The position numbers and the translations under genes were made by a program. Below are positions 3,896 through 64,000 of a stretch of 64,000 nucleotides of DNA, one piece after another. Under the pieces are notes generated by a model. It made no database searches and was not told the origin of the DNA. It worked only from the letters and a program-made list of their open reading frames with translations. Positions within the stretch are counted from its first letter, which is position 1. Every line of letters begins with the position of its first letter. The DNA comes from Candidatus Eiseniibacteriota bacterium (lineage in GTDB: Bacteria > Eisenbacteria > RBG-16-71-46): positions 978-64,977 of the forward strand of contig JAWOLC010000011.1 of NCBI GenBank assembly GCA_033853925.1, read 5' to 3'.

Positions 3896-5593
3896 ATGTC
3901 GCTCTGTCTGACGGGCAGCGTGGGTGGCCGCTCCTCGGTCTGGCCGCTCCAGGGGGCGAGCCTGAGCGTCGGGCGCTCCTCGCGTAGCGGCGTGCAGATC
4001 CCCGATCCCACCGTGTCGAAGGAGCACGCCGAGATCACCCGGCGCGACGAGCGGTGGGTCATCCGCGACCTGGGCAGCCGCAACGGCACGCGGGTGAACG
4101 GCGTGGACGCCCTCGAGCCGATCCCGCTCGCCGAGGGGGATCTGGTCGAGGTGGGCAGCGTGCTCCTGCGCGTCGCCGCCGAGCGCGTGGAGGCGGCGAC
4201 GCAGTTCAGCCCCTCGCCGGGGCTGGGCTCGACCGTGAAGCTCGCGGCCCAGGACTTCCTGGGCCGCTCGGCGCCCTCGGGGGAGGCCGCGGCGCGGATG
4301 GTGCACGTGCTCGCCGAGGCGGGGCGCGTGCTGGTCCTCCCTCGCCCCCTGGCGGAGACCTGCGAGAAGATCCTCGAGCTGGTCGAGCGGGCCGTGCCCG
4401 CCTCGCGGCTCGTCGTCCTCCTGCGCGACGCGCCGGGGGCCGAGCCCGTGCAGATCGCGGCGCGCAGCCGGGGCGGGAGCGCCCGCGAGCCGCTGGCGCT
4501 CTCGCGAGCCATCCTCTCCACGGTGCTCGACGAGTGCACCTCGGTCGTGATCAGCGACGCCCGGCACGATCCCCGCTTCCAGGCGCGGCAGAGCATCATC
4601 GCGGCCGCGATCCACTCGGCCATGGCGGTGCCGCTCTTCGACAACGAGCGCGTGCTGGGACTGCTCTACGCCGACACTCGCGACTTCGACGTGACCTTCG
4701 GGCAGGAGCACCTGGAGGTGCTCACCCTGCTCGCCAACATGGCGGCGGTGAAGATCACGAACGCGCGGCTGCTCGAGGCGGAGCAGGCTCGCGCCCGCAT
4801 GGCGCAGGAGCTGGCCACGGCGGCGCGCATCCAGCGCGGGCTACTCCCCCCGGAGCCGCCGGTGCTCGACGGCTGGGAGATCGACGACTTCCTCGAGAGC
4901 TGCTACGAGGTGGGTGGCGACCTCTACGACTTCCACCTCCGCCCCGACGGCAAGCTCCTCTTCGTCGCCGGAGACGTGGTCGGGAAGGGGATGGGCGCGG
5001 CGCTCCTGATGTCCTCCTTCCTCGCGTCGGCGCGCGTGCTCTACGAGGCCTGTCCCGAGCCCGGGGTCCTGGCCACACGCCTGGGCGCGCTCCTCGAGCG
5101 CGAGGCGGAGCGGGGCCGCTTCGTGACGGGGGTCGTGGCCTGCCTCGACCCGCGCACCGGGCGCCTCGAATACGTGAACGCGGGCCACCCGCCGCCGTGC
5201 GTGATCGACGCTTCCGGGCTGAGACGCCTGGAGAGCACGGGTCCGCCCTTCGGGGTGGTCGCGGGCGTGGTCTACGAGCCCGGCGTGGCGACGATCGCAC
5301 CCGGCGAGCTGCTGGCGCTCTACAGCGACGGCCTGCCGGAGGCGCAGCACGGCGACGAGTTCTTCGACGAGGAGCGCCTGGCCTCGGCGCTGCGCGAGTC
5401 CTACGGACTGCCGCTGGCGGAGGCACGGCGCCGGGTGATCGAGCGGGTGAAGACGTTCCAGGCCGAGACGCCACGGGGCGACGACCTCACGCTGCTCCTC
5501 ATTCGCCGCGGTGGGAGCGCGGTGACCGGGGCCTCGTCCGCCGGCGTGAGCGAGAGCGAGGCGGCCGTGGCCCCGGGCGGAGCGGTCCGGTGA
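3896..5593 (+). CDS. FHA domain - GAF domain - PP2C/SpoIIE-type Ser/Thr phosphatase
   Basis: N-terminal FHA (LSVGRSSRSGVQIPDPTVSKEHAEITRRDERWVIRDLGSRNGTRVNG). Central GAF. C-terminal PP2C/SpoIIE (GGDLYDF, VAGDVVGKGMGAALLMS, YSDGLPEA). An alternative upstream ATG at 3809 is possible. The stop is 7 nt before the first kinase gene. Confidence 0.8.
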   Translation: MSLCLTGSVGGRSSVWPLQGASLSVGRSSRSGVQIPDPTVSKEHAEITRRDERWVIRDLGSRNGTRVNGVDALEPIPLAEGDLVEVGSVLLRVAAERVEAATQFSPSPGLGSTVKLAAQDFLGRSAPSGEAAARMVHVLAEAGRVLVLPRPLAETCEKILELVERAVPASRLVVLLRDAPGAEPVQIAARSRGGSAREPLALSRAILSTVLDECTSVVISDARHDPRFQARQSIIAAAIHSAMAVPLFDNERVLGLLYADTRDFDVTFGQEHLEVLTLLANMAAVKITNARLLEAEQARARMAQELATAARIQRGLLPPEPPVLDGWEIDDFLESCYEVGGDLYDFHLRPDGKLLFVAGDVVGKGMGAALLMSSFLASARVLYEACPEPGVLATRLGALLEREAERGRFVTGVVACLDPRTGRLEYVNAGHPPPCVIDASGLRRLESTGPPFGVVAGVVYEPGVATIAPGELLALYSDGLPEAQHGDEFFDEERLASALRESYGLPLAEARRRVIERVKTFQAETPRGDDLTLLLIRRGGSAVTGASSAGVSESEAAVAPGGAVR

Positions 5594-55664: not shown

Positions 55665-57198
<1,534 letters not shown>

Positions 57199-57389: not shown

Positions 57390-58477
57390 ATGATCGGCAC
57401 CCTGCTCTTCGTCTCCTTCCCGCTGGCCGTCGCCCGCGCCATGGCCGCGAATCCCGCGCCCGCGGAGCGGCGGCTGCTCGTCTTCCTCGCCCTCGCCGCC
57501 TCCGGCGCCCTCGCCGCCTTCCTGCTGGCGCGGGCCCGGGTCTCGCGCGCGGTTCGCGAGCTGGTCGCCAGCGCCCGCCAGGTGGGAGCCGGCGATCTGC
57601 GCAAGCGCGTCCCCGTGCGCGGGCGCGGCGGGCTCGCGCGCCTCGCCCTGGAGTTCAACGCGATGTGCGAGCGGCTCGAGCAGACGCAACGCTCCCTGCT
57701 CGAGGAGCAGGAGGAACGCCGGCGCGTGGAAGCGAGGCTGCGCGAGGCCGAGCACCTGGCCAGCATCGGCCGGCTCGCCGCCGGCCTGGCCCACGAGATC
57801 GGCACGCCCCTGAACGTCATCAGCGGCCGCACGGAGTCCCTGCTGCGCCGGGGAGGCGGCGACGAGTCGGCGAGCCGCAGCCTGCGGATCATCGGCAGCC
57901 AGATCGAGCGCATCGCCCGCACCGTCCGGGCCATGCTCGACTTCGCCCGCGCCCACGAGCCGCGGCTCGCCCTCAGCGATGTGACGGAGCTGATCCGGGA
58001 CGTCCTCGACCTCGTCGAGCAGCGCTTCGAGCAGGCACGGGTGCGGGTGACGACCTCCATCGCCCCGGATCTGCCGGCCGTGGCCGTGGACGCCGACCAG
58101 ATCCAGGAGGTGTTCCTGAACCTGGCCTTGAACGCCGCCGACGCGATGCCGGCGGGGGGTGAGCTGCGCATCGCCGTCGAGCGCGTGTCGCGCCGTCGGC
58201 CGGAGCGCGAGGAGCCGTCGCGGCCCTTCGTGGCGGTGGCCTTCGAGGATACGGGCACGGGCGTCGCCGCCGAGAACCTGGGGCGGGTCTTCGATCCCTT
58301 CTTCACCACCAAGGAGATCGGGGTGGGCACCGGGCTCGGCCTCTCGATCGCCTACGGCATCGTCAGCGAGCACGGTGGCTGGATCGAGCTGGAGAGCGCG
58401 CCCGGCCGGGGCGCGCGGGCCACGGTGTTCCTGCCCCTCGAGCCGCTCGGCGCCCCCGCCGGCGCCGGAGCCCGGGC

Positions 58478-58484
<7 letters not shown>
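57390..58484 (+). CDS. Sensor histidine kinase (TM-HAMP-HisKA-HATPase)
   Basis: H-box LAAGLAHEIGTPL. N-box NLALNAADA. G-boxes DTGTGV and GTGLGL. Confidence 0.9.
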
Positions 58485-59827
<1,343 letters not shown>

Positions 59828-60020
59828 CCCGACAGGGTGTCCCGGGGTGCCACACCCGTGGCGTTCCGCCCCGAACCCGCGATCGGTGCGCTCCGGGGCG
59901 GCATCGCGCGGGTGGCGAGCCCTCCGTGGGACGCCGCGCTCGCCGGGGCCGGCGCGCGGCCGAGCGATCTCGGCCGCGCAACGGCTTGGCCGCCGCCGCG
60001 TTCGCGCGACAGGGGCGAGC

Positions 60021-60035
60021 TGGCACGTGAATCGC
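60021..60035 (+). promoter_or_regulatory. Candidate sigma-54 promoter (-24/-12) TGGCACgtgaaTCGC
   Basis: Matches TGGCACG-N4-TTGC with correct GG/GC spacing and one mismatch (T to C at -14). Lies between the sigma54 activator gene and the small paralog genes, about 160 nt upstream of ATG 60193. Confidence 0.45.
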
Positions 60036-60192
60036 CTCGTGGGGCGCGGGGCGAGGAGCGTGTCCGTCGCGCGGGACCAGGCCGCGCCGAGGAGAAGAGC
60101 GCGAGGGCTCACGGGCCGCCCAGTCTTCGCCCTGCCGAAGGGAGCCGGTCGCGCGAACGCGTATCCTCGTCACGGAACGAAGGAGGGTCATC

Positions 60193-60474
60193 ATGCCTCA
60201 GACCAAGGGTCAGACCATGTCGGCACAGCACCGTTCCTCGCGCCTCGCCGAGATGGGTTGGAACGACATCGACTTCCCGGGCTGCTACCTGCTCATCGAC
60301 TCCGGGGAGCTCGTCCGGATCCCGGAGGAGGCGCTGGCGCCGGGGCACTCGCCGCTCGTGACGATCACCTCCTCGCGGGACACGCGGGTGGCTCGGCTCT
60401 CCGAGAACCCCTCCGAGCCGATCTCGGTGCTGCGCGCCACCGCGGCGGACAACGACTACTTCGTCAACTTCTGA
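60193..60474 (+). CDS. Small conserved protein of unknown function, tandem paralog A (93 aa)
   Basis: GAAGGAGG 5 nt before the ATG. About 55% identical to paralog B over ~70 aa (GWNDIDFPGCYLL..SGELVR...PLVTITSSRDTRVARLS...PIS.LR..AADNDYFVNF). Confidence 0.65.
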   Translation: MPQTKGQTMSAQHRSSRLAEMGWNDIDFPGCYLLIDSGELVRIPEEALAPGHSPLVTITSSRDTRVARLSENPSEPISVLRATAADNDYFVNF

Positions 60475-60680
60475 AGGGTCGGGATGCGGCCGGGCGAGGG
60501 GCGGGCGAGCTGGCGCCGCGGTGAGCGAGCCGGGGCCTCGCGAGCCCGCCCCCCTCCCGGTGCTCGAGAGAGAGTGGCCGCCCGCCAAGGAGGCGCCAGT
60601 TGCCGAGAAGGAAATCGCACCCCAAGCGACGGGCTCCGGAGCCGGAGGGGCGGCGCGTCCGGGACGCCGGTCCTCCCGAG

Positions 60681-60902
60681 ATGGAGTGGAACGAGATCAC
60701 CCGGCCCGGGTGCTACCTGATGGTCGGCAGCGGTCAGCTCGTGCGCGTGCGCTCGGGGGTGGTGGGCAGCGGTCATCCGCCGCTCGTCAGCATCACGACC
60801 CGGGGGGACACGCGCGTCGCGCGGCTGTCCGACGACGCCGCGGCGCCGATCTCGTCCTTGCGGACGATGGCGGCGGACAACGACTACCTCGTGGCCTTCT
60901 GA
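60681..60902 (+). CDS. Small conserved protein of unknown function, tandem paralog B (74 aa from ATG 60681; 100 aa if the listed TTG start at 60600 is used)
   Basis: MEWNEITRPGCYLMVGSGQLVRV...PLVSITTRGDTRVARLSDDAAAPISSLRTMAADNDYLVAF. The listed ORF start at 60600 is a TTG codon. Confidence 0.6.
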   Translation: MEWNEITRPGCYLMVGSGQLVRVRSGVVGSGHPPLVSITTRGDTRVARLSDDAAAPISSLRTMAADNDYLVAF

Positions 60903-61121
60903 GCGGAGGCGAGACGACCGGCGCCCAGCATGCTGCACCGGCAGCGGAACGCGTTTGGAGGCATGCCGCTGCGCGTGAAGTCTGGGCGTCAGGCTCCGCC
61001 TCCGCTCAGGAGGAGTGACGAGGCCGGGGGAGCCGGGGACCGGGCGGTGGCCGGGTCCCCTCGCGGGAAGGGAGCACTTTTCTTGCTCCTTCTCCGGCCC
61101 GATCTCATCCATCCGGCCGAT

Positions 61122-62660
61122 ATGAGCGATCTCTCTTCCAGGGGGGGTGGGGATCTCTACCGGCTGGCCGTGGAGCTGTCGCCCTCGGGCATGCTGGCCG
61201 TGGATGCCTCCGGCACGATCCTCCTCGTCAACCGCGAGGTCGAGCGGCTCTTCGGCTACGGCCGCGACGAGCTGAACGGCCGCCCGGTCGAGTTGCTCGT
61301 GCCCGAGCGCTTTCGCGGGCGGCATCCGGCCCTGCGGCACGCCTTCTTCCAGGAGCCCGAGATGCGCCCCATGGGAGCGGGGCGCGAGCTGTTCGGCCTG
61401 CGCAAGGACGGCACCGAGTTCCCCGTCGAGATCGGGCTCAACCCCATCCGCACCGAGCTGGGCCTGCTGGTCTTCGCCTCGATCGTGGACGTGACCCACC
61501 GCCAGCAGCTCGAGGAGCAGCTTCGGCAGTCGCAGAAGCTCGAGGCGATCGGGACGATCGCCGGGGGCATCGCCCACGACTTCAACAACCTGCTCCTGAG
61601 CGTCGTGGGGCACGCCGAGCTGGCGCGCGCCAGCCTGGCCGCGGATCCCAAGGAGAGAGAGGACATCGATCAGATCCTGAAGGCCGCCCAGCGCGGGCGC
61701 GAGCTGGTGCAGCGGATCCTGACCTTCAGCCGGCGGCACGTGACCGCCCGCGTGCCCCTGCGTCTCGAGCGTCCGGTCCGCGACGCGCTCGGCTTGCTGC
61801 GCGCCTCGCTGCCGAGCACGATCGAGCTGCGCGAGGACTTCGATCCGCGCACCCCCGCCGTGCTGTCGGACGAGACGGACGTCCACCAGATCCTGATGAA
61901 CCTGGTGACGAACTCGGCGCACGCCCTGGAGGGGGGCGGGCGCATCGACATCGCGCTCGCGCCCCACCTCGTGTCCGCGGGGAGCGACTCGCTCCATCCC
62001 GATCTGAAGCCCGGCGCCTACGCGCGCCTCACCGTCGTGGACAACGGGCACGGGATGACCCCCGAAGTGGCGCAGCGGGCCTTCGAGCCGTTCTTCACCA
62101 CCAAGCCCGTGGGGACGGGCACGGGGCTCGGCCTCTCCGTCATCCGCGGCATCGTGCGCAGCCTCGGCGGCGTGATCGCGCTGGAGACCCGGCCGAACGA
62201 GGGCACGCGGGTGGACATCTTCCTCCCCGCGCTGTCGGAGGAGGAGGCGCCGCTGCGGGGGGCGGAGACGGACCCCGAGGCGCACGCGGAGGCCCGCGTG
62301 CTGCTCGTGGAGGACGAGGAGATTCTGGCCACGCTGCAGCGCCGTCGCCTCGAGGACTTCGGCGTGCGCGTGACCGTGCACACGTCCAGCGTGGAGGCGC
62401 TCGCGGACTTTCGCGCCAGGCCCGAGGCCTTCGATCTCCTGATCACCGACAACACGATGCCGGGCCTCACGGGCTCGGCCCTCGCCCGCGAGGTGCACCG
62501 CCTGCGCCCGAGCCTGCCCATCCTGATGATCTCGGGCGTGCTGGAGACCGACGACCCGGTGGTTCTCCGCGCGCGCGGCGTGGTGGGCGTGCTGCGCAAG
62601 CCTCACAGCGCGAAGGAGCTGGAGGACGCCGTCCGCCAGGCTCTCCGCGCGACCGCCTGA
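61122..62660 (+). CDS. Hybrid sensor histidine kinase (PAS - HisKA - HATPase - C-terminal receiver)
   Basis: Start MSDLSS. PAS (LFGYGRDELNGRPVELLVPERFRGRH). H-box GIAHDFNNLL. HATPase (DNGHGM, GTGLGLS). Receiver with D in DLLITDNTMPG. The 64 upstream codons of the listed ORF are junk. Confidence 0.85.
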   Translation: MSDLSSRGGGDLYRLAVELSPSGMLAVDASGTILLVNREVERLFGYGRDELNGRPVELLVPERFRGRHPALRHAFFQEPEMRPMGAGRELFGLRKDGTEFPVEIGLNPIRTELGLLVFASIVDVTHRQQLEEQLRQSQKLEAIGTIAGGIAHDFNNLLLSVVGHAELARASLAADPKEREDIDQILKAAQRGRELVQRILTFSRRHVTARVPLRLERPVRDALGLLRASLPSTIELREDFDPRTPAVLSDETDVHQILMNLVTNSAHALEGGGRIDIALAPHLVSAGSDSLHPDLKPGAYARLTVVDNGHGMTPEVAQRAFEPFFTTKPVGTGTGLGLSVIRGIVRSLGGVIALETRPNEGTRVDIFLPALSEEEAPLRGAETDPEAHAEARVLLVEDEEILATLQRRRLEDFGVRVTVHTSSVEALADFRARPEAFDLLITDNTMPGLTGSALAREVHRLRPSLPILMISGVLETDDPVVLRARGVVGVLRKPHSAKELEDAVRQALRATA

Positions 62661-62676
62661 GCTTCGCCGCTCCGCC

Positions 62677-64000
62677 TCAGGTCCCCAGCGCCTCGCAGGT
62701 CCGGCGGAAGTGGTGGCCGTAGATCGCCAGGGTCACGGCCACGCGCAGGAGCGCGGGTCGCCGGCAGAACGTCCACGCGAGCAGGTGCCAGTAGTGGAAG
62801 CGCTCGCGGCCCAGGACCCCCAGCCGCAGGCTCGAGTAGGCGAACGCCCAGGCGCTGCGCCAGTCCAGGCGCCAGCCGATGCGCGGCGGCCGGTACTCGC
62901 GCAGGAAGGTGCGGATGCGCCCGTAGTAGGAGCCGGGCGCGTAGAGCCGGGCGAGGAGGTTGCGGTAGCCCGAGCGCAGCACCTCCGCGTTCATGCGTGG
63001 CACGAAGTTCGTCGAGCCGTCCACGTTGTCGCCGGTGCTCTCGCCGAGGATCCGGCCCTCGCGCTTCAGCCGCTCGTAGAGGCGCGTCCGCGGCGCGGCG
63101 TTCAGCAGCCCCACCATGGCCGTGACGATGCCGCTCCGCTGGATGAACTCGATCTGCGTCTGGAAGATCGCGGGCGTGTCGCTGTCGAAGCCGATGATGA
63201 AGCCTCCCTGCACCTGCAGGCCCGCCCGCTGGATCCGCTTCACGTTCGCGACGAGATCGCGGCCCCGGTTCTGCCGCTTGTTGCACTCCGCGAGCGCCGC
63301 GTCCTCCGGCGTCTCGATGCCGATGAACACGGTGTCGAAGCCCGCCGCCACCAGCATGCGCATCAGGGCCTCGTCGTCGGCCAGGTTGATCGAGGCCTCG
63401 GTGTAGAAGCTGAAGCCGGGCCGCGTGCGCCGCCAGGCGATCAGCTCCGGCAGGAGCCCCTCCTTCAGCTCGCGTTTGTTGCCGATCAGGTTGTCGTCCA
63501 CGAAGAACACCGCGCCGCGCCAGCCCAGGCGATGGATCGCCTCCAGCTCGGCGATGACCTGGGCAGGACTCTTCGTGCGCGGCCGGCGGCCGAAGAGAGC
63601 AGTGACGTTGCAGAACTCGCAGTCGAAGGGACAGCCCCTCGAGAACTGCACGCTCAGGGAGTGGTAGCGCCTGAGATCGGCCAGGTCCCAGAGGGGCGCG
63701 GGGGTCTCGTGCAGCTCCGGGAACTCGCTGGCCGTGTAGATCCGCTCCGCCTTGCCCCGCTCCAGGTCGCGCAGGAAGGGGGCCAGGGTGGCCTCGGCCT
63801 CGTCGAGGACGAAGTGATCCACCTCGGGAAACCGCTCGTGCTCGGCGGTGAAGAGCGGGCCGCCGGCGACGATCTTCTTGCCCGCGGCACGGCAGCGGGC
63901 GATCAGCGCCCGCGCCGAATCCCGCTGGGCGATCATGGCGCTCACGAGCACGATGTCGGCCCAGGCCAGGTCCGCGTCGCGCAGGCGGCGGACGTTCTCG
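62677..64000 (-). CDS. B12-binding-domain radical SAM protein (5' end beyond the window)
   Basis: Cobalamin-binding N-terminal region continuing past position 64000 in frame. Radical SAM cluster motif SRGCPFDCEFC. TIM-barrel-like remainder. Confidence 0.8.
   Translation of the reverse strand, partial: ENVRRLRDADLAWADIVLVSAMIAQRDSARALIARCRAAGKKIVAGGPLFTAEHERFPEVDHFVLDEAEATLAPFLRDLERGKAERIYTASEFPELHETPAPLWDLADLRRYHSLSVQFSRGCPFDCEFCNVTALFGRRPRTKSPAQVIAELEAIHRLGWRGAVFFVDDNLIGNKRELKEGLLPELIAWRRTRPGFSFYTEASINLADDEALMRMLVAAGFDTVFIGIETPEDAALAECNKRQNRGRDLVANVKRIQRAGLQVQGGFIIGFDSDTPAIFQTQIEFIQRSGIVTAMVGLLNAAPRTRLYERLKREGRILGESTGDNVDGSTNFVPRMNAEVLRSGYRNLLARLYAPGSYYGRIRTFLREYRPPRIGWRLDWRSAWAFAYSSLRLGVLGRERFHYWHLLAWTFCRRPALLRVAVTLAIYGHHFRRTCEALGT

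What the first reader, a model, noticed from the sequence alone, without database searches (positions are those of the whole stretch)
60017..60902. Two tandem paralogous small proteins of unknown function downstream of an NtrC-type two-component system, preceded by a near-consensus sigma-54 promoter
Immediately after the HK/sigma54-activator pair lies TGGCACgtgaaTCGC (60021-60035), with correct -24/-12 spacing. An inverted repeat GGGTGT-N11-ACACCC (59835-59857) could serve as an activator-binding site. Downstream are two adjacent genes (60193-60474 and 60681-60902) encoding ~75-100-aa proteins that are about 55% identical to each other. Both have a single conserved Cys in FPGCYL / RPGCYLM and a conserved AADNDY(F/L)V tail. 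The first has a strong SD (GAAGGAGG). I do not recognise this family. The arrangement suggests a dedicated output of the two-component system.
Basis: partly seen in the sequence, partly recalled or inferred. Interest (0 to 1): 0.6.

Follow-up and report, generated by a model that had tools for sequence, protein, structure and literature searches.

The report
Sigma-54-controlled pair of unknown small proteins
Two neighbouring genes for about 95-residue proteins of a widespread but undescribed family from uncultured soil bacteria sit behind a conserved sigma-54 promoter, and appear to be the dedicated target of the two-component regulator encoded just upstream; what the proteins do is still unknown, with weak hints of a stress role.

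Summary
Two paralogous ORFs (58% identical over 74 residues) follow a histidine kinase / NtrC-type activator pair, and TGGCAC-N5-TCGC lies at 60021-60035. Gene 2 probably starts at TTG 60600, not ATG 60681. The shared Cys is not conserved in the family.

Comparative evidence supports the regulatory reading. A -24/-12 element lies 60-230 nt upstream of the gene in 29 of 49 dereplicated lineages (0.019 expected per upstream region). An activator is adjacent in 15 of 38 informative lineages. All 28 activators of the adjacent clade that span the motif carry GAFTDA. Second tandem copies never have their own promoter, so the two genes probably form one operon ending in a strong hairpin.

The proteins belong to an unnamed family: 365 clusters at 50% identity, about 1,480 at 90%, all from metagenomes or MAGs (Acidobacteriota, Gemmatimonadota, Eisenbacteria). 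They have no Pfam, NCBIfam, PADLOC, PHROG or PDB match. Other lineages use an NhaR-type LysR regulator or a sigma-70-like promoter. Some place the gene beside groES-groEL, hsp20 or a MamK-family actin.

Function is unresolved. My best guess is a stress-induced cytoplasmic protein acting through protein-protein contacts. This is an ordinary regulatory design with a novel output protein; interest is moderate.

The parts
57390..58484 (+). Sensor histidine kinase. It has two N-terminal hydrophobic segments separated by a loop of about 10 residues, then HAMP, HisKA and HATPase_c. It overlaps the next gene by 7 nt.
   Evidence: Pfam HAMP 1.3e-08, HisKA 3.1e-13, HATPase_c 1.2e-21. It reaches no NCBIfam equivalog cut-off. 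Orthologues 53-61% identical sit in the same position in L015, L044 and L076. The membrane topology is read from the sequence.
58478..59827 (+). NtrC-type response regulator and sigma-54 enhancer-binding protein: REC with Asp56, an AAA+ domain with Walker A GESGTGK and the sigma-54 contact loop GAFTDA, and an HTH_8 DNA-binding domain.
   Evidence: Pfam Response_reg 1.1e-30, Sigma54_activat 2.8e-68, HTH_8 9.9e-13. GAFTDA is shared by all 28 activators of the clade adjacent to the family gene that span the motif. The REC residues are canonical. It scores below the cut-offs for NtrC, AtoC, GlrR and ZraR.
59835..59872 (.). Conserved element immediately after the activator stop codon and candidate activator-binding site (UAS), about 170 nt upstream of the -24 element.
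   Evidence: An alignment of the intergenic regions of six lineages of the window's clade shows the pattern GTCCC..GCCmCA-N3-4-GkGGC(A/G)TT..CCCCAC at the same position. The exact dyad also occurs in L014 at 4716-4729. Binding is inferred, not shown; a terminator hairpin for the activator gene is not excluded.
60021..60035 (+). Sigma-54 (-24/-12) promoter TGGCAC-GTGAA-TCGC. The transcription start is inferred near 60046-60048, giving a 5' leader of about 146 nt.
   Evidence: It is the only match in the window. Equivalent elements lie 60-230 nt upstream of the family gene in 29 of 49 dereplicated lineages, against 0.019 expected per 240 nt. The TCGC form of the -12 element recurs in the closest lineages: L015, L066, L076, L008, L089 and L110.
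60180..60186 (+). Shine-Dalgarno AAGGAGG of gene 1, 6 nt before the ATG.
   Evidence: Sequence.
60193..60474 (+). Gene 1 (P1): 93 aa, acidic (pI 4.9). It is a typical member of the family, with a disordered N-terminal tail (KGQ..RSSRL.EM.WN), a beta-rich core and a C-terminal helix ending in DNDYFVNF.
   Evidence: 110 homologues at 52-81% identity (one 53-aa fragment at 84%), most covering the full length. GC3 is 0.94. AlphaFold2 gives pLDDT 76.7 and pTM 0.62.
60490..60560 (+). GC-rich hairpin between the two genes. It encloses GGGCGAGCTGGC (60503-60514), a 12-nt copy of the sequence around the -24 element, which may be a relic of the duplication. It has no usable -12 element.
   Evidence: Inverted repeat I8 and direct repeat D6. 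The fold is not better than shuffles, z -1.17. None of 9 second-of-tandem copies in other loci has its own sigma-54 element.
60587..60593 (+). Shine-Dalgarno AAGGAGG of gene 2, 6 nt before TTG 60600.
   Evidence: Sequence. The geometry is the same as for gene 1.
60600..60902 (+). Gene 2 (P2): 100 aa if it starts at TTG 60600, or 73 aa from ATG 60681. It is a divergent paralogue. The core keeps every family-invariant residue, but the N-terminal 26 residues are basic, Pro/Arg-rich and unique (overall pI 10.3).
   Evidence: BLASTP against P1. Alignment. Called as 100 aa in public data. There are no close orthologues; the best hits are P1-type proteins, 52-68% identical over the core only. GC3 is 0.91 overall and 0.78 in the N-terminal extension.
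60895..61105 (+). Strongly structured 3' region. A long hairpin starts in the last codons of gene 2 (arms 60895-60911 and 60997-61013), followed by two shorter GC-rich hairpins. It is the probable transcript end and stabiliser of the two-gene unit.
   Evidence: MFE -144.9 against -113.6 kcal/mol for shuffles, z -6.03, and 0 of 200 shuffles fold as well. The 3' flank of the family gene is structured in many lineages: median z -1.9, and z below -2 in 25 of 54. No Rfam match. Unique in the window.

Best explanation
The region is a two-gene, sigma-54-dependent transcription unit. It is the dedicated target of the histidine kinase / enhancer-binding response regulator encoded directly upstream.

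Proposed sequence of events:
1. The kinase (57390-58484) has almost no extracytoplasmic loop, so it probably senses a membrane-associated or cytoplasmic cue. It phosphorylates Asp56 of the regulator. (Inferred.)
2. The regulator binds the conserved element just after its own stop codon (about 59835-59872). (Inferred from conservation.)
3. Through its GAFTDA loop it remodels sigma-54 RNA polymerase bound at 60021-60035. (The element and its conservation are shown; activity is inferred.)
4. One transcript starts near 60047 and carries P1 (60193-60474) and P2 (60600-60902), each with AAGGAGG-N6-start. It ends in the strong hairpin region 60895-61105. (Inferred.)

The products are small, soluble, cytoplasmic proteins of an undescribed family. 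Each has a flexible N-terminal tail, a small beta-rich core with invariant Gly30, Gly38 and Arg42, and a C-terminal helix that resembles a single leucine-rich-repeat-variant unit and ends in a near-invariant Phe. The family has no conserved catalytic or metal-binding residues, tandem paralogue pairs recur, and conservation is very high. I therefore propose that the proteins act stoichiometrically by binding a partner protein, probably as homo- or hetero-dimers, as effectors of a stress response.

The stress reading rests on relatives that lie under an NhaR-type regulator and beside groES-groEL or hsp20. That last step is the weakest. I put the regulatory part at about 0.85 and the stress-effector function at about 0.3.
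For: Anatomy:
- Kinase and regulator domains.
- Canonical receiver residues.
- GESGTGK and GAFTDA. GAFTDA is a documented functional variant of GAFTGA (PMC4641369).

Promoter:
- Unique match in the window.
- Same element at the same relative position in 29 of 49 dereplicated lineages, against a background of 0.019 per 240 nt.

Regulator-target pairing:
- Activator within 1.5 kb in 15 of 38 informative lineages.
- Activator is the most widespread neighbour family, 18 of 54 lineages.
- Kinase-activator-gene order is conserved in L015, L044/L040 and L076.
- The motif is GAFTDA in the 28 activators of the adjacent clade that span it. It is GAFTGA or GSFTGA in the 3 activators lying 3-4 kb away.
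- A conserved element follows the activator stop codon.

Operon:
- Identical SD geometry for both genes.
- 0 of 9 second tandem copies carry their own promoter.
- No sigma-70-like promoter in 59700-61100.
- Strong 3' structure after gene 2, z -6.03; the 3' flank is structured in many other lineages.

Real genes:
- GC3 0.94 and 0.91.
- 110 close homologues, 365 clusters at 50% identity, about 1,480 at 90%.
- P2 keeps all invariant residues.

Protein features:
- AlphaFold2 pLDDT 76.7 with a disordered N-terminus.
- Invariant G30, G38, R42; near-invariant Y32, L40, R81 and C-terminal F93.
- Resemblance to one LRV repeat.

Stress hints:
- A divergent LysR regulator scores above the NhaR equivalog cut-off.
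- groES-groEL lies directly downstream in L023, L079/L081 and L100, and hsp20 in L092.

Precedents for sigma-54 or two-component control of heat-shock genes:
- ibpB in E. coli (PMC2831329).
- HsfBA-lonD in Myxococcus (PMC9109919).
Against: - There are no expression data of any kind.
- The window's -12 element is TCGC, not TTGC, and a single match in 64 kb is within chance expectation. The case rests on comparative position.
- 20 of 49 lineages lack a sigma-54 element. Many copies have no activator nearby. The protein's role therefore cannot depend on this regulator.
- Chaperone neighbours are seen in only four or five related lineages. Other contexts are unrelated: a MamK-family actin, a flagellar regulatory cluster, or none conserved.
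- No structural or sequence relative gives any functional handle.
- The 5' leader and the hairpin between the genes fold no better than shuffled sequence.
- The start of P2 is uncertain.
- The candidate binding site could be a terminator hairpin for the activator gene.
Confidence: 0.6

Rival explanations
1. Feedback regulator. P1/P2 bind the adjacent enhancer-binding protein, or its kinase, and switch it off. PspA does this to PspF, HrpV to HrpS, and ZraP to ZraSR. The locus would then be a self-limiting circuit, and the small proteins would be regulators rather than effectors.
For: - The gene sits directly beside its activator in 15 of 38 informative lineages.
- Those activators form their own clade, marked by GAFTDA, which suggests co-evolution.
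- The protein is small, has no catalytic residues, and has a conserved C-terminal docking-like motif.
- The PspA, HrpV and ZraP precedents are from my own knowledge of those systems.
Against: - Many family genes with a sigma-54 promoter have no activator within 5 kb: L005-7, L017, L020, L067.
- Whole lineages use an NhaR-type LysR regulator or a sigma-70-like promoter instead.
- Sequence conservation is as high in those lineages, so the conserved partner is unlikely to be the activator.
- The family has no similarity to PspA, ZraP/CpxP or HrpV.
Confidence: 0.15
2. DNA-binding swapped-hairpin (AbrB/MazE/SpoVT-like) transcription factor or antitoxin. The core motif G-x-L-V-R-I-P-x-E-A-L and the predicted beta-beta-alpha-beta-beta order resemble that fold, which needs dimerisation. 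That would fit the recurrent tandem pairs.
For: - Motif resemblance, recalled from memory of MazE (..AVRIPATLMQAL..) and AbrB (..GRVVIPIELRRTL..).
- Predicted secondary-structure order E30-34, E40-43, H45-48, E65-70.
- Tandem paralogue pairs in several lineages.
Against: - Profile comparison against MazE and AbrB gives probabilities of 1.2% and 0.1%.
- No Pfam SpoVT-AbrB hit, even at E 0.1-1.
- Foldseek against the PDB finds no such chain.
- P1 is acidic (pI 4.9), as is most of the family.
- No toxin-like partner gene is present.
Confidence: 0.04
3. The promoter match is coincidental. The two genes are read from the activator's transcript or from an unrecognised promoter, or gene 2 is a decaying duplicate that is not expressed.
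For: - One match in 64 kb is within chance.
- The -12 element is non-consensus.
- The N-terminal extension of P2 has atypical codon-position GC, and P2 has no orthologues.
- A 17-nt inverted repeat (59997-60013 / 60145-60161) flanks the promoter and would only form in a read-through RNA.
Against: - The element is conserved in position across 29 lineages with different surrounding sequence.
- The core of P2 keeps every invariant residue and has GC3 0.91.
- P2 has a perfect SD at the right distance.
Confidence: 0.08
4. Ribosomally made peptide precursors, modified by the nearby B12-binding radical SAM enzyme (62677-63951, minus strand).
For: Small tandem paralogues with a conserved C-terminal tail, and a radical SAM gene 1.8 kb away.
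Against: - The radical SAM gene is not found near any other family member.
- The whole protein is conserved, rather than a leader plus a variable core.
- A folded domain is predicted.
- The Cys is not conserved.
Confidence: 0.02

Closest known systems
ZraPSR of Enterobacteria (ZraS kinase, ZraR sigma-54 activator, small accessory protein ZraP)
   Same: - A two-component kinase plus NtrC-family enhancer-binding regulator whose main adjacent sigma-54 target encodes one small protein (from my own knowledge).
- The window's kinase and regulator give partial matches to the ZraS and ZraR models.
   Different: - Scores are far below the ZraS/ZraR equivalog cut-offs: 165 against 479, and 393 against 760.
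- P1/P2 show no signal peptide on reading their sequences (no predictor was run) and have no CpxP/ZraP-type domain.
- The target lies on the same strand downstream rather than divergent.
- The kinase has almost no periplasmic domain.
PspF-pspA (phage-shock) and HrpS-HrpV circuits
   Same: An enhancer-binding protein gene next to a sigma-54 promoter whose first product is a small non-enzymatic protein acting by protein-protein contact (from my own knowledge).
   Different: - No PspA or HrpV homology.
- The activator here has a phosphorylatable receiver domain and a cognate kinase.
- Family members also occur without any activator nearby.
HsfBA-lonD of Myxococcus xanthus and the sigma-54 promoter of E. 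coli ibpB
   Same: They are precedents for stress or heat-shock genes driven by an NtrC-like regulator or by sigma-54 (PMC9109919; PMC2831329). Some relatives of P1 lie next to hsp20 or groES-groEL.
   Different: - The output here is not a protease or a small heat-shock protein.
- A stress role for P1/P2 is only inferred from neighbours in a few lineages.
Leucine-rich repeat variant (LRV, Pfam PF01816) repeats
   Same: Residues 57-92 (..RVARLSENPSEPISVLRATAADNDYFV..) align with one LRV unit (vRxxvAxNPnTPxxvLxxLAkDed). The family profile picks up LRV repeat proteins with many matched stretches, and hhalign gives 62% probability over 36 columns.
   Different: - There is a single unit, not an array.
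- The family proteins themselves do not reach any Pfam LRV hit.
- The N-terminal beta-rich core has no counterpart in LRV proteins.

Membership tests
Sigma-54 (RpoN)-dependent promoter | GG at -24 and GC at -12, with exactly 10 bases between the two dinucleotides, within TGGCAC-N5-TTGC(A/T) | tested here: met
   TGGCAC-GTGAA-TCGC at 60021-60035. There is one deviation, TCGC for TTGC, and the same variant occurs in related loci.
Sigma-54 (RpoN)-dependent promoter | Positioned upstream of, and oriented towards, a gene, and conserved at orthologous positions | tested here: met
   It lies 172 nt before the ATG. Equivalent elements occur in 29 of 49 dereplicated lineages, against 0.019 expected per 240 nt.
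Sigma-54 (RpoN)-dependent promoter | A cognate enhancer-binding ATPase with Walker A and the GAFTGA-type sigma-54 contact loop | tested here: met
   GESGTGK and GAFTDA in the adjacent regulator. GAFTDA is listed among functional variants (PMC4641369).
Sigma-54 (RpoN)-dependent promoter | Transcription start about 12 nt downstream of the GC, dependent on rpoN and on the activator | not testable with these tools
   This needs 5' end mapping and genetics. I did not look for rpoN in the window.
NtrC-family two-component system | Kinase with HisKA and HATPase_c; regulator with REC (phospho-acceptor Asp), sigma-54 AAA+ domain and Fis-type HTH | tested here: met
   Pfam domains. Asp56, Thr and Lys of the receiver are present in the window's clade.
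Named equivalogs NtrC, AtoC, GlrR, ZraR, PspF | Score above NCBIfam's curated cut-off | tested here: not met
   Best scores are 434 against 559 (NtrC), 420 against 714 (AtoC), 406 against 763 (GlrR) and 393 against 760 (ZraR). It is a member of the superfamily only.
Any described protein family (for P1/P2) | Significant match to a Pfam, NCBIfam, PADLOC or PHROG profile, or to a solved structure | tested here: not met
LRV repeat (PF01816) | Tandem 24-26-residue helical repeats recognised by the Pfam model | tested here: inconclusive
   The resemblance covers a single unit: hhalign 62% probability over 36 columns. There is no Pfam hit for the family itself.
SpoVT/AbrB/MazE swapped-hairpin domain | Profile or fold similarity to AbrB or MazE N-domains | tested here: not met
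   hhalign gives 1.2% and 0.1%. No Pfam hit and no Foldseek hit.
RiPP precursor with radical SAM maturase | Conserved linkage to a modifying enzyme; conserved leader and variable core | tested here: not met
   The radical SAM gene is absent from all other loci. The protein is conserved over its full length.

The most novel reading that the evidence does not exclude
P1/P2 represent a previously unrecognised class of small stress-response proteins, abundant in uncultured soil phyla (Acidobacteriota, Gemmatimonadota, Eisenbacteria). On this reading they work as homo- or hetero-dimeric adaptors for a conserved cellular machine, such as a chaperone or an actin-like filament. Different lineages have repeatedly rewired their expression to different dedicated sensors: a GAFTDA-type enhancer-binding protein with sigma-54, an NhaR-type LysR regulator, or a sigma-70-like promoter.
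Probability: 0.3. Interest if true: 0.6.

Novelty: new variant of a known kind. Interest (0 to 1): 0.42.

Why it matters
The regulatory design is textbook: sensor kinase, enhancer-binding regulator, sigma-54 promoter, small output protein. The output, however, is a family with no name, fold assignment or cultured representative. Even so, it forms about 1,480 clusters at 90% identity in soil and sediment metagenomes and stays 60-80% identical across phyla.

Such strong conservation, together with a dedicated regulator, marks it as something these organisms need under a specific condition. The conserved promoter and the GAFTDA activator clade give a concrete, testable handle. A reporter reconstituted in a model host could be used to find the inducing signal for poorly understood soil bacteria. 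The small size of the protein makes structural and interaction studies easy.

Tried and rejected
- Rfam on 59000-62000 at E up to 1 gave nothing. The 5' leader (z -0.25) and the hairpin between the genes (z -1.17) fold no better than shuffles, so I do not propose a riboswitch or attenuator.
- The exact palindrome GCCAC-N4-GTGGC is not a general motif: only L014 shares it upstream of the gene. Only the looser element of the window's clade is conserved.
- A CIRCE heat-shock operator was not found in any locus, even with 4 mismatches allowed.
- AbrB/MazE fold idea: rejected.
- A PilZ-like c-di-GMP binding motif was considered from the sequence. RxxxR and DxSxxG are not present in register, and there is no Pfam hit. 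I did not pursue it.
- RiPP precursor idea: rejected.
- Defence-system and phage libraries: no hits.
- Literature search for the peptide strings: no paper.
- The 98-codon ORF between the family gene and groES, which looked HPF-like at its N-terminus, has no Pfam hit and is frameshifted in L079/L081. It may be non-coding.
I used the close alignment instead.
Full report
**What is in the sequence**

The window is about 70% G+C. On the plus strand lie five features in order:
- A histidine kinase (57390-58484) with HAMP, HisKA and HATPase_c domains.
- An NtrC-type regulator (58478-59827) with REC, a sigma-54 AAA+ domain and HTH_8. It overlaps the kinase gene by 7 nt.
- A 365-nt spacer.
- A 93-codon ORF (60193-60474).
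- A second ORF ending at 60902.

The two products are 58% identical over 74 residues, E 8e-32. TGGCAC-GTGAA-TCGC is at 60021-60035 and is the only match to TGGCAC-N5-TYGC in the window. One match is within chance, however: 0.39 are expected, and 34 of 100 shuffles have at least one.

**Corrections to the observation**

Gene 2 most likely begins at TTG 60600:
- AAGGAGG lies at 60587-60593, 6 nt before the TTG. This is the same geometry as AAGGAGG 60180-60186 before ATG 60193.
- ATG 60681 has no ribosome-binding site.
- Public gene calls give a 100-residue product.

The extension remains uncertain. Its third-position G+C is 0.78, against 0.94 for gene 1 and 0.91 for gene 2 as a whole. No homologue covers it.

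The Cys shared by the two paralogues is C, S, A or T in relatives, so it is not a hallmark.

**The protein family**

- P1 has 110 homologues at 52-81% identity (one 53-aa fragment at 84%), and most cover its full length. All are unnamed. All come from metagenomes or MAGs labelled Acidobacteriota, Thermoanaerobaculia, Gemmatimonadota or Candidatus Eisenbacteria, plus one 'Hyphomicrobiales' bin.
- An exhaustive profile search finds 365 clusters at 50% identity. A word-indexed profile search finds 1,482 clusters at 90%.
- Nearly all are stand-alone proteins of 85-100 residues.
- Across the broad family, G30, G38 and R42 are invariant. Y32, L40, R81 and the C-terminal F93 are near-invariant.
- There is no Pfam, NCBIfam, PADLOC or PHROG match for P1, P2 or distant members. 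There is no PDB sequence relative.
- Two AlphaFold2 models (pLDDT 72.9 and 76.7, pTM 0.60 and 0.62) agree. They show a disordered N-terminal tail of about 18 residues, four short strands and a C-terminal helix at 77-86.
- Foldseek against the PDB gives nothing better than E 1.7. Other fold libraries were unavailable.
- P1 is acidic (pI 4.9), as is most of the family. P2 is basic only because of its N-terminal extension.
- The family profile also picks up long LRV-repeat proteins (PF01816) through residues 54-91. A profile comparison gives 62% probability over 36 columns. This is a resemblance to one repeat unit, not membership.

**Is the promoter real?**

I collected 119 loci. The counts below use the 114 held at that point, plus the window. 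I located every family copy with a profile and dereplicated the copies at 95% nucleotide identity, which gave 62 clusters.
- Of 49 first-copy clusters with at least 200 nt upstream, 29 carry a -24/-12 element 60-230 nt before the start codon. The criterion was a GG/GC core with at least 9 of 11 consensus positions.
- The same criterion hits 0.019 times per 240 nt elsewhere in these loci.
- The TCGC form of the -12 element seen in the window recurs in its closest relatives.
- None of the 9 second-of-tandem copies has its own element.
- No sigma-70-like promoter is found in 59700-61100.

The window's element is therefore very likely a genuine sigma-54 promoter serving both genes.

**Is the adjacent regulator its activator?**

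- An NtrC-type activator lies within 1.5 kb in 15 of 38 informative clusters. It is mostly directly upstream on the same strand, 290-400 nt away.
- It is the most widespread conserved neighbour family, in 18 of 54 lineages.
- The full kinase-activator-gene order is conserved in L015, L044/L040 and L076, with kinases 53-61% and activators 72-75% identical.
- All 28 activators of the adjacent clade that span the motif carry GAFTDA instead of GAFTGA. The three activators lying 3-4 kb away carry GAFTGA or GSFTGA. GAFTDA is listed as a functional variant in Desulfovibrio (PMC4641369).
- In the window's clade a roughly 45-nt element directly after the activator's stop codon is conserved. Its pattern is GTCCC..GCCmCA-N3-4-GkGGC(A/G)TT..CCCCAC, at 59835-59872 in the window. 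A terminator hairpin is not excluded.
- The receiver domain is canonical in the window's clade but degenerate in the Acidobacteriota-type clade. The conserved partnership is therefore activator plus gene, with variable input.

**Transcript end**

The 236 nt from 60890 fold far better than shuffles: -144.9 against -113.6 kcal/mol, z -6.03. The structure begins with a long hairpin that starts in the last codons of gene 2. The element is unique in the window. The 3' flank of the family gene is structured in many lineages, with a median z of -1.9 and z below -2 in 25 of 54. This fits a short transcription unit that ends right after the family gene or genes. The PAS hybrid kinase downstream probably starts at 61122 and is not conserved next to the family.

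**Clues to function**

Contexts vary, and I saw four kinds:
- In a group of lineages without a sigma-54 element, a LysR regulator is divergently transcribed about 130-180 nt upstream. It scores above NCBIfam's NhaR cut-off, 232 against 219. The next genes downstream are groES-groEL (L023, L079/L081, L100), hsp20 (L092) or a 101-residue ABM-like protein (L024, L102, L103; also in the sigma-54 loci L008 and L101).
- In two more distant lineages (L030/31, L115/116), a tandem pair of family genes is followed by an acidic Pro/Ala-rich protein of about 160 residues and an actin-like protein. The actin-like protein scores above the MamK-family cut-off, 414 against 400. L030 has a sigma-70-like TTGACA-16-TACATA.
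- Two lineages place the gene beside a flagellar regulatory cluster.
- Tandem or nearby duplicates arose repeatedly: the window, L014, L025, L030, L115, and L005/L020. In some of these the copies are still at least 95% identical.

The family has no conserved catalytic or metal-binding residues, very high conservation and recurrent paralogue pairs. I therefore favour a stoichiometric, protein-binding role, probably as dimers, in a stress response. Sigma-54 or two-component control of heat-shock genes has precedents: ibpB (PMC2831329) and HsfBA-lonD (PMC9109919). This functional step is inference from a minority of contexts, and I give it about 0.3.

**Rivals**

- A PspA- or ZraP-style feedback regulator of the adjacent activator remains possible (0.15). 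It fits poorly with the many copies that have no activator nearby, and with lineages under LysR or sigma-70 control.
- An AbrB/MazE-like DNA binder was suggested by the VRIP motif but failed profile and fold tests.
- A peptide precursor for the nearby radical SAM enzyme is excluded, because the linkage is not conserved.
- A coincidental promoter is unlikely given the comparative data.

**Verdict**

The system is a known design with an output protein from an undescribed, widespread family of uncultured soil bacteria. Interest is moderate. The function is open but now has a clear experimental handle.

Noticed in passing
window 60890-61125: The region after gene 2 is exceptionally structured: z -6.03, and 0 of 200 shuffles fold as well. 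It consists of a roughly 115-nt hairpin that starts inside the last codons of gene 2, plus two further GC-rich hairpins. It has no Rfam match and is unique in the window. It may be more than a terminator, for example a 3'-derived small RNA or a stabiliser.
   Followed up: partly
window 58478-59827, and activators in L001, L013-L016, L036-L066, L076, L110 and others: All 28 enhancer-binding proteins of the clade adjacent to the family gene that span the motif have GAFTDA in place of GAFTGA. In the Acidobacteriota-type members (L001, L014, L016, L036) the receiver domain has lost the conserved Thr/Lys, and in some the acceptor Asp, so it is a pseudo-receiver.
   Followed up: partly
L030 6001-8582; L115 420-3000: A conserved four-gene cluster in distant lineages: family gene A, a distinct B-type paralogue, an acidic Pro/Ala-rich protein of about 160 residues with a conserved C-terminal helix, and an actin-like protein scoring above NCBIfam's MamK-family cut-off (414 against 400). 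No other magnetosome genes are nearby.
   Followed up: partly
L023, L079, L081, L092, L097, L100, L102-L104, L114: In lineages lacking the sigma-54 element, an NhaR-type LysR regulator is divergently transcribed from the family gene. The next genes downstream are groES-groEL, hsp20 or an ABM-like protein.
   Followed up: partly
L023 4972-5259; L100 944-1240; L104 1264-1503; frameshifted in L079 and L081: A conserved stretch of about 300 nt lies between the family gene and groES. It reads as a 95-98-codon ORF with an HPF-like first ten residues, but it has no Pfam hit and is frameshifted in two loci. It may be a non-coding leader of groESL.
   Followed up: partly
window 59997-60013 and 60145-60161: A 17-nt inverted repeat, 94% complementary, brackets the sigma-54 promoter and the first 100 nt of the leader. 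Only a read-through transcript from the activator gene could form this pairing.
   Followed up: no
window 60013-60024 and 60503-60514: The 12-nt sequence GGGCGAGCTGGC around the -24 element is repeated exactly between the two genes, inside a hairpin and without a usable -12 element. It may be a relic of a duplication that included the promoter. In L014 the second copy likewise keeps the upstream element but has lost the promoter segment.
   Followed up: partly
L001 6257-6270 (+), upstream of the activator gene: A second GGCAY-N5-TYGC match lies just upstream of the activator gene itself in L001-L003, which hints at autoregulation in that clade.
   Followed up: no
window 55665-57198 and 61122-63951: Neighbours of the cassette in the window:
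- DUF6526 protein (55665-56102).
- Old-Yellow-Enzyme-type flavin oxidoreductase (56107-57198).
- PAS-HisKA-HATPase-REC hybrid kinase (ORF from 60930, probable start 61122, to 62660).
- Convergent B12-binding radical SAM protein with DUF4070 (62677-63951, minus strand).

None of them is conserved next to the family elsewhere.
   Followed up: partly
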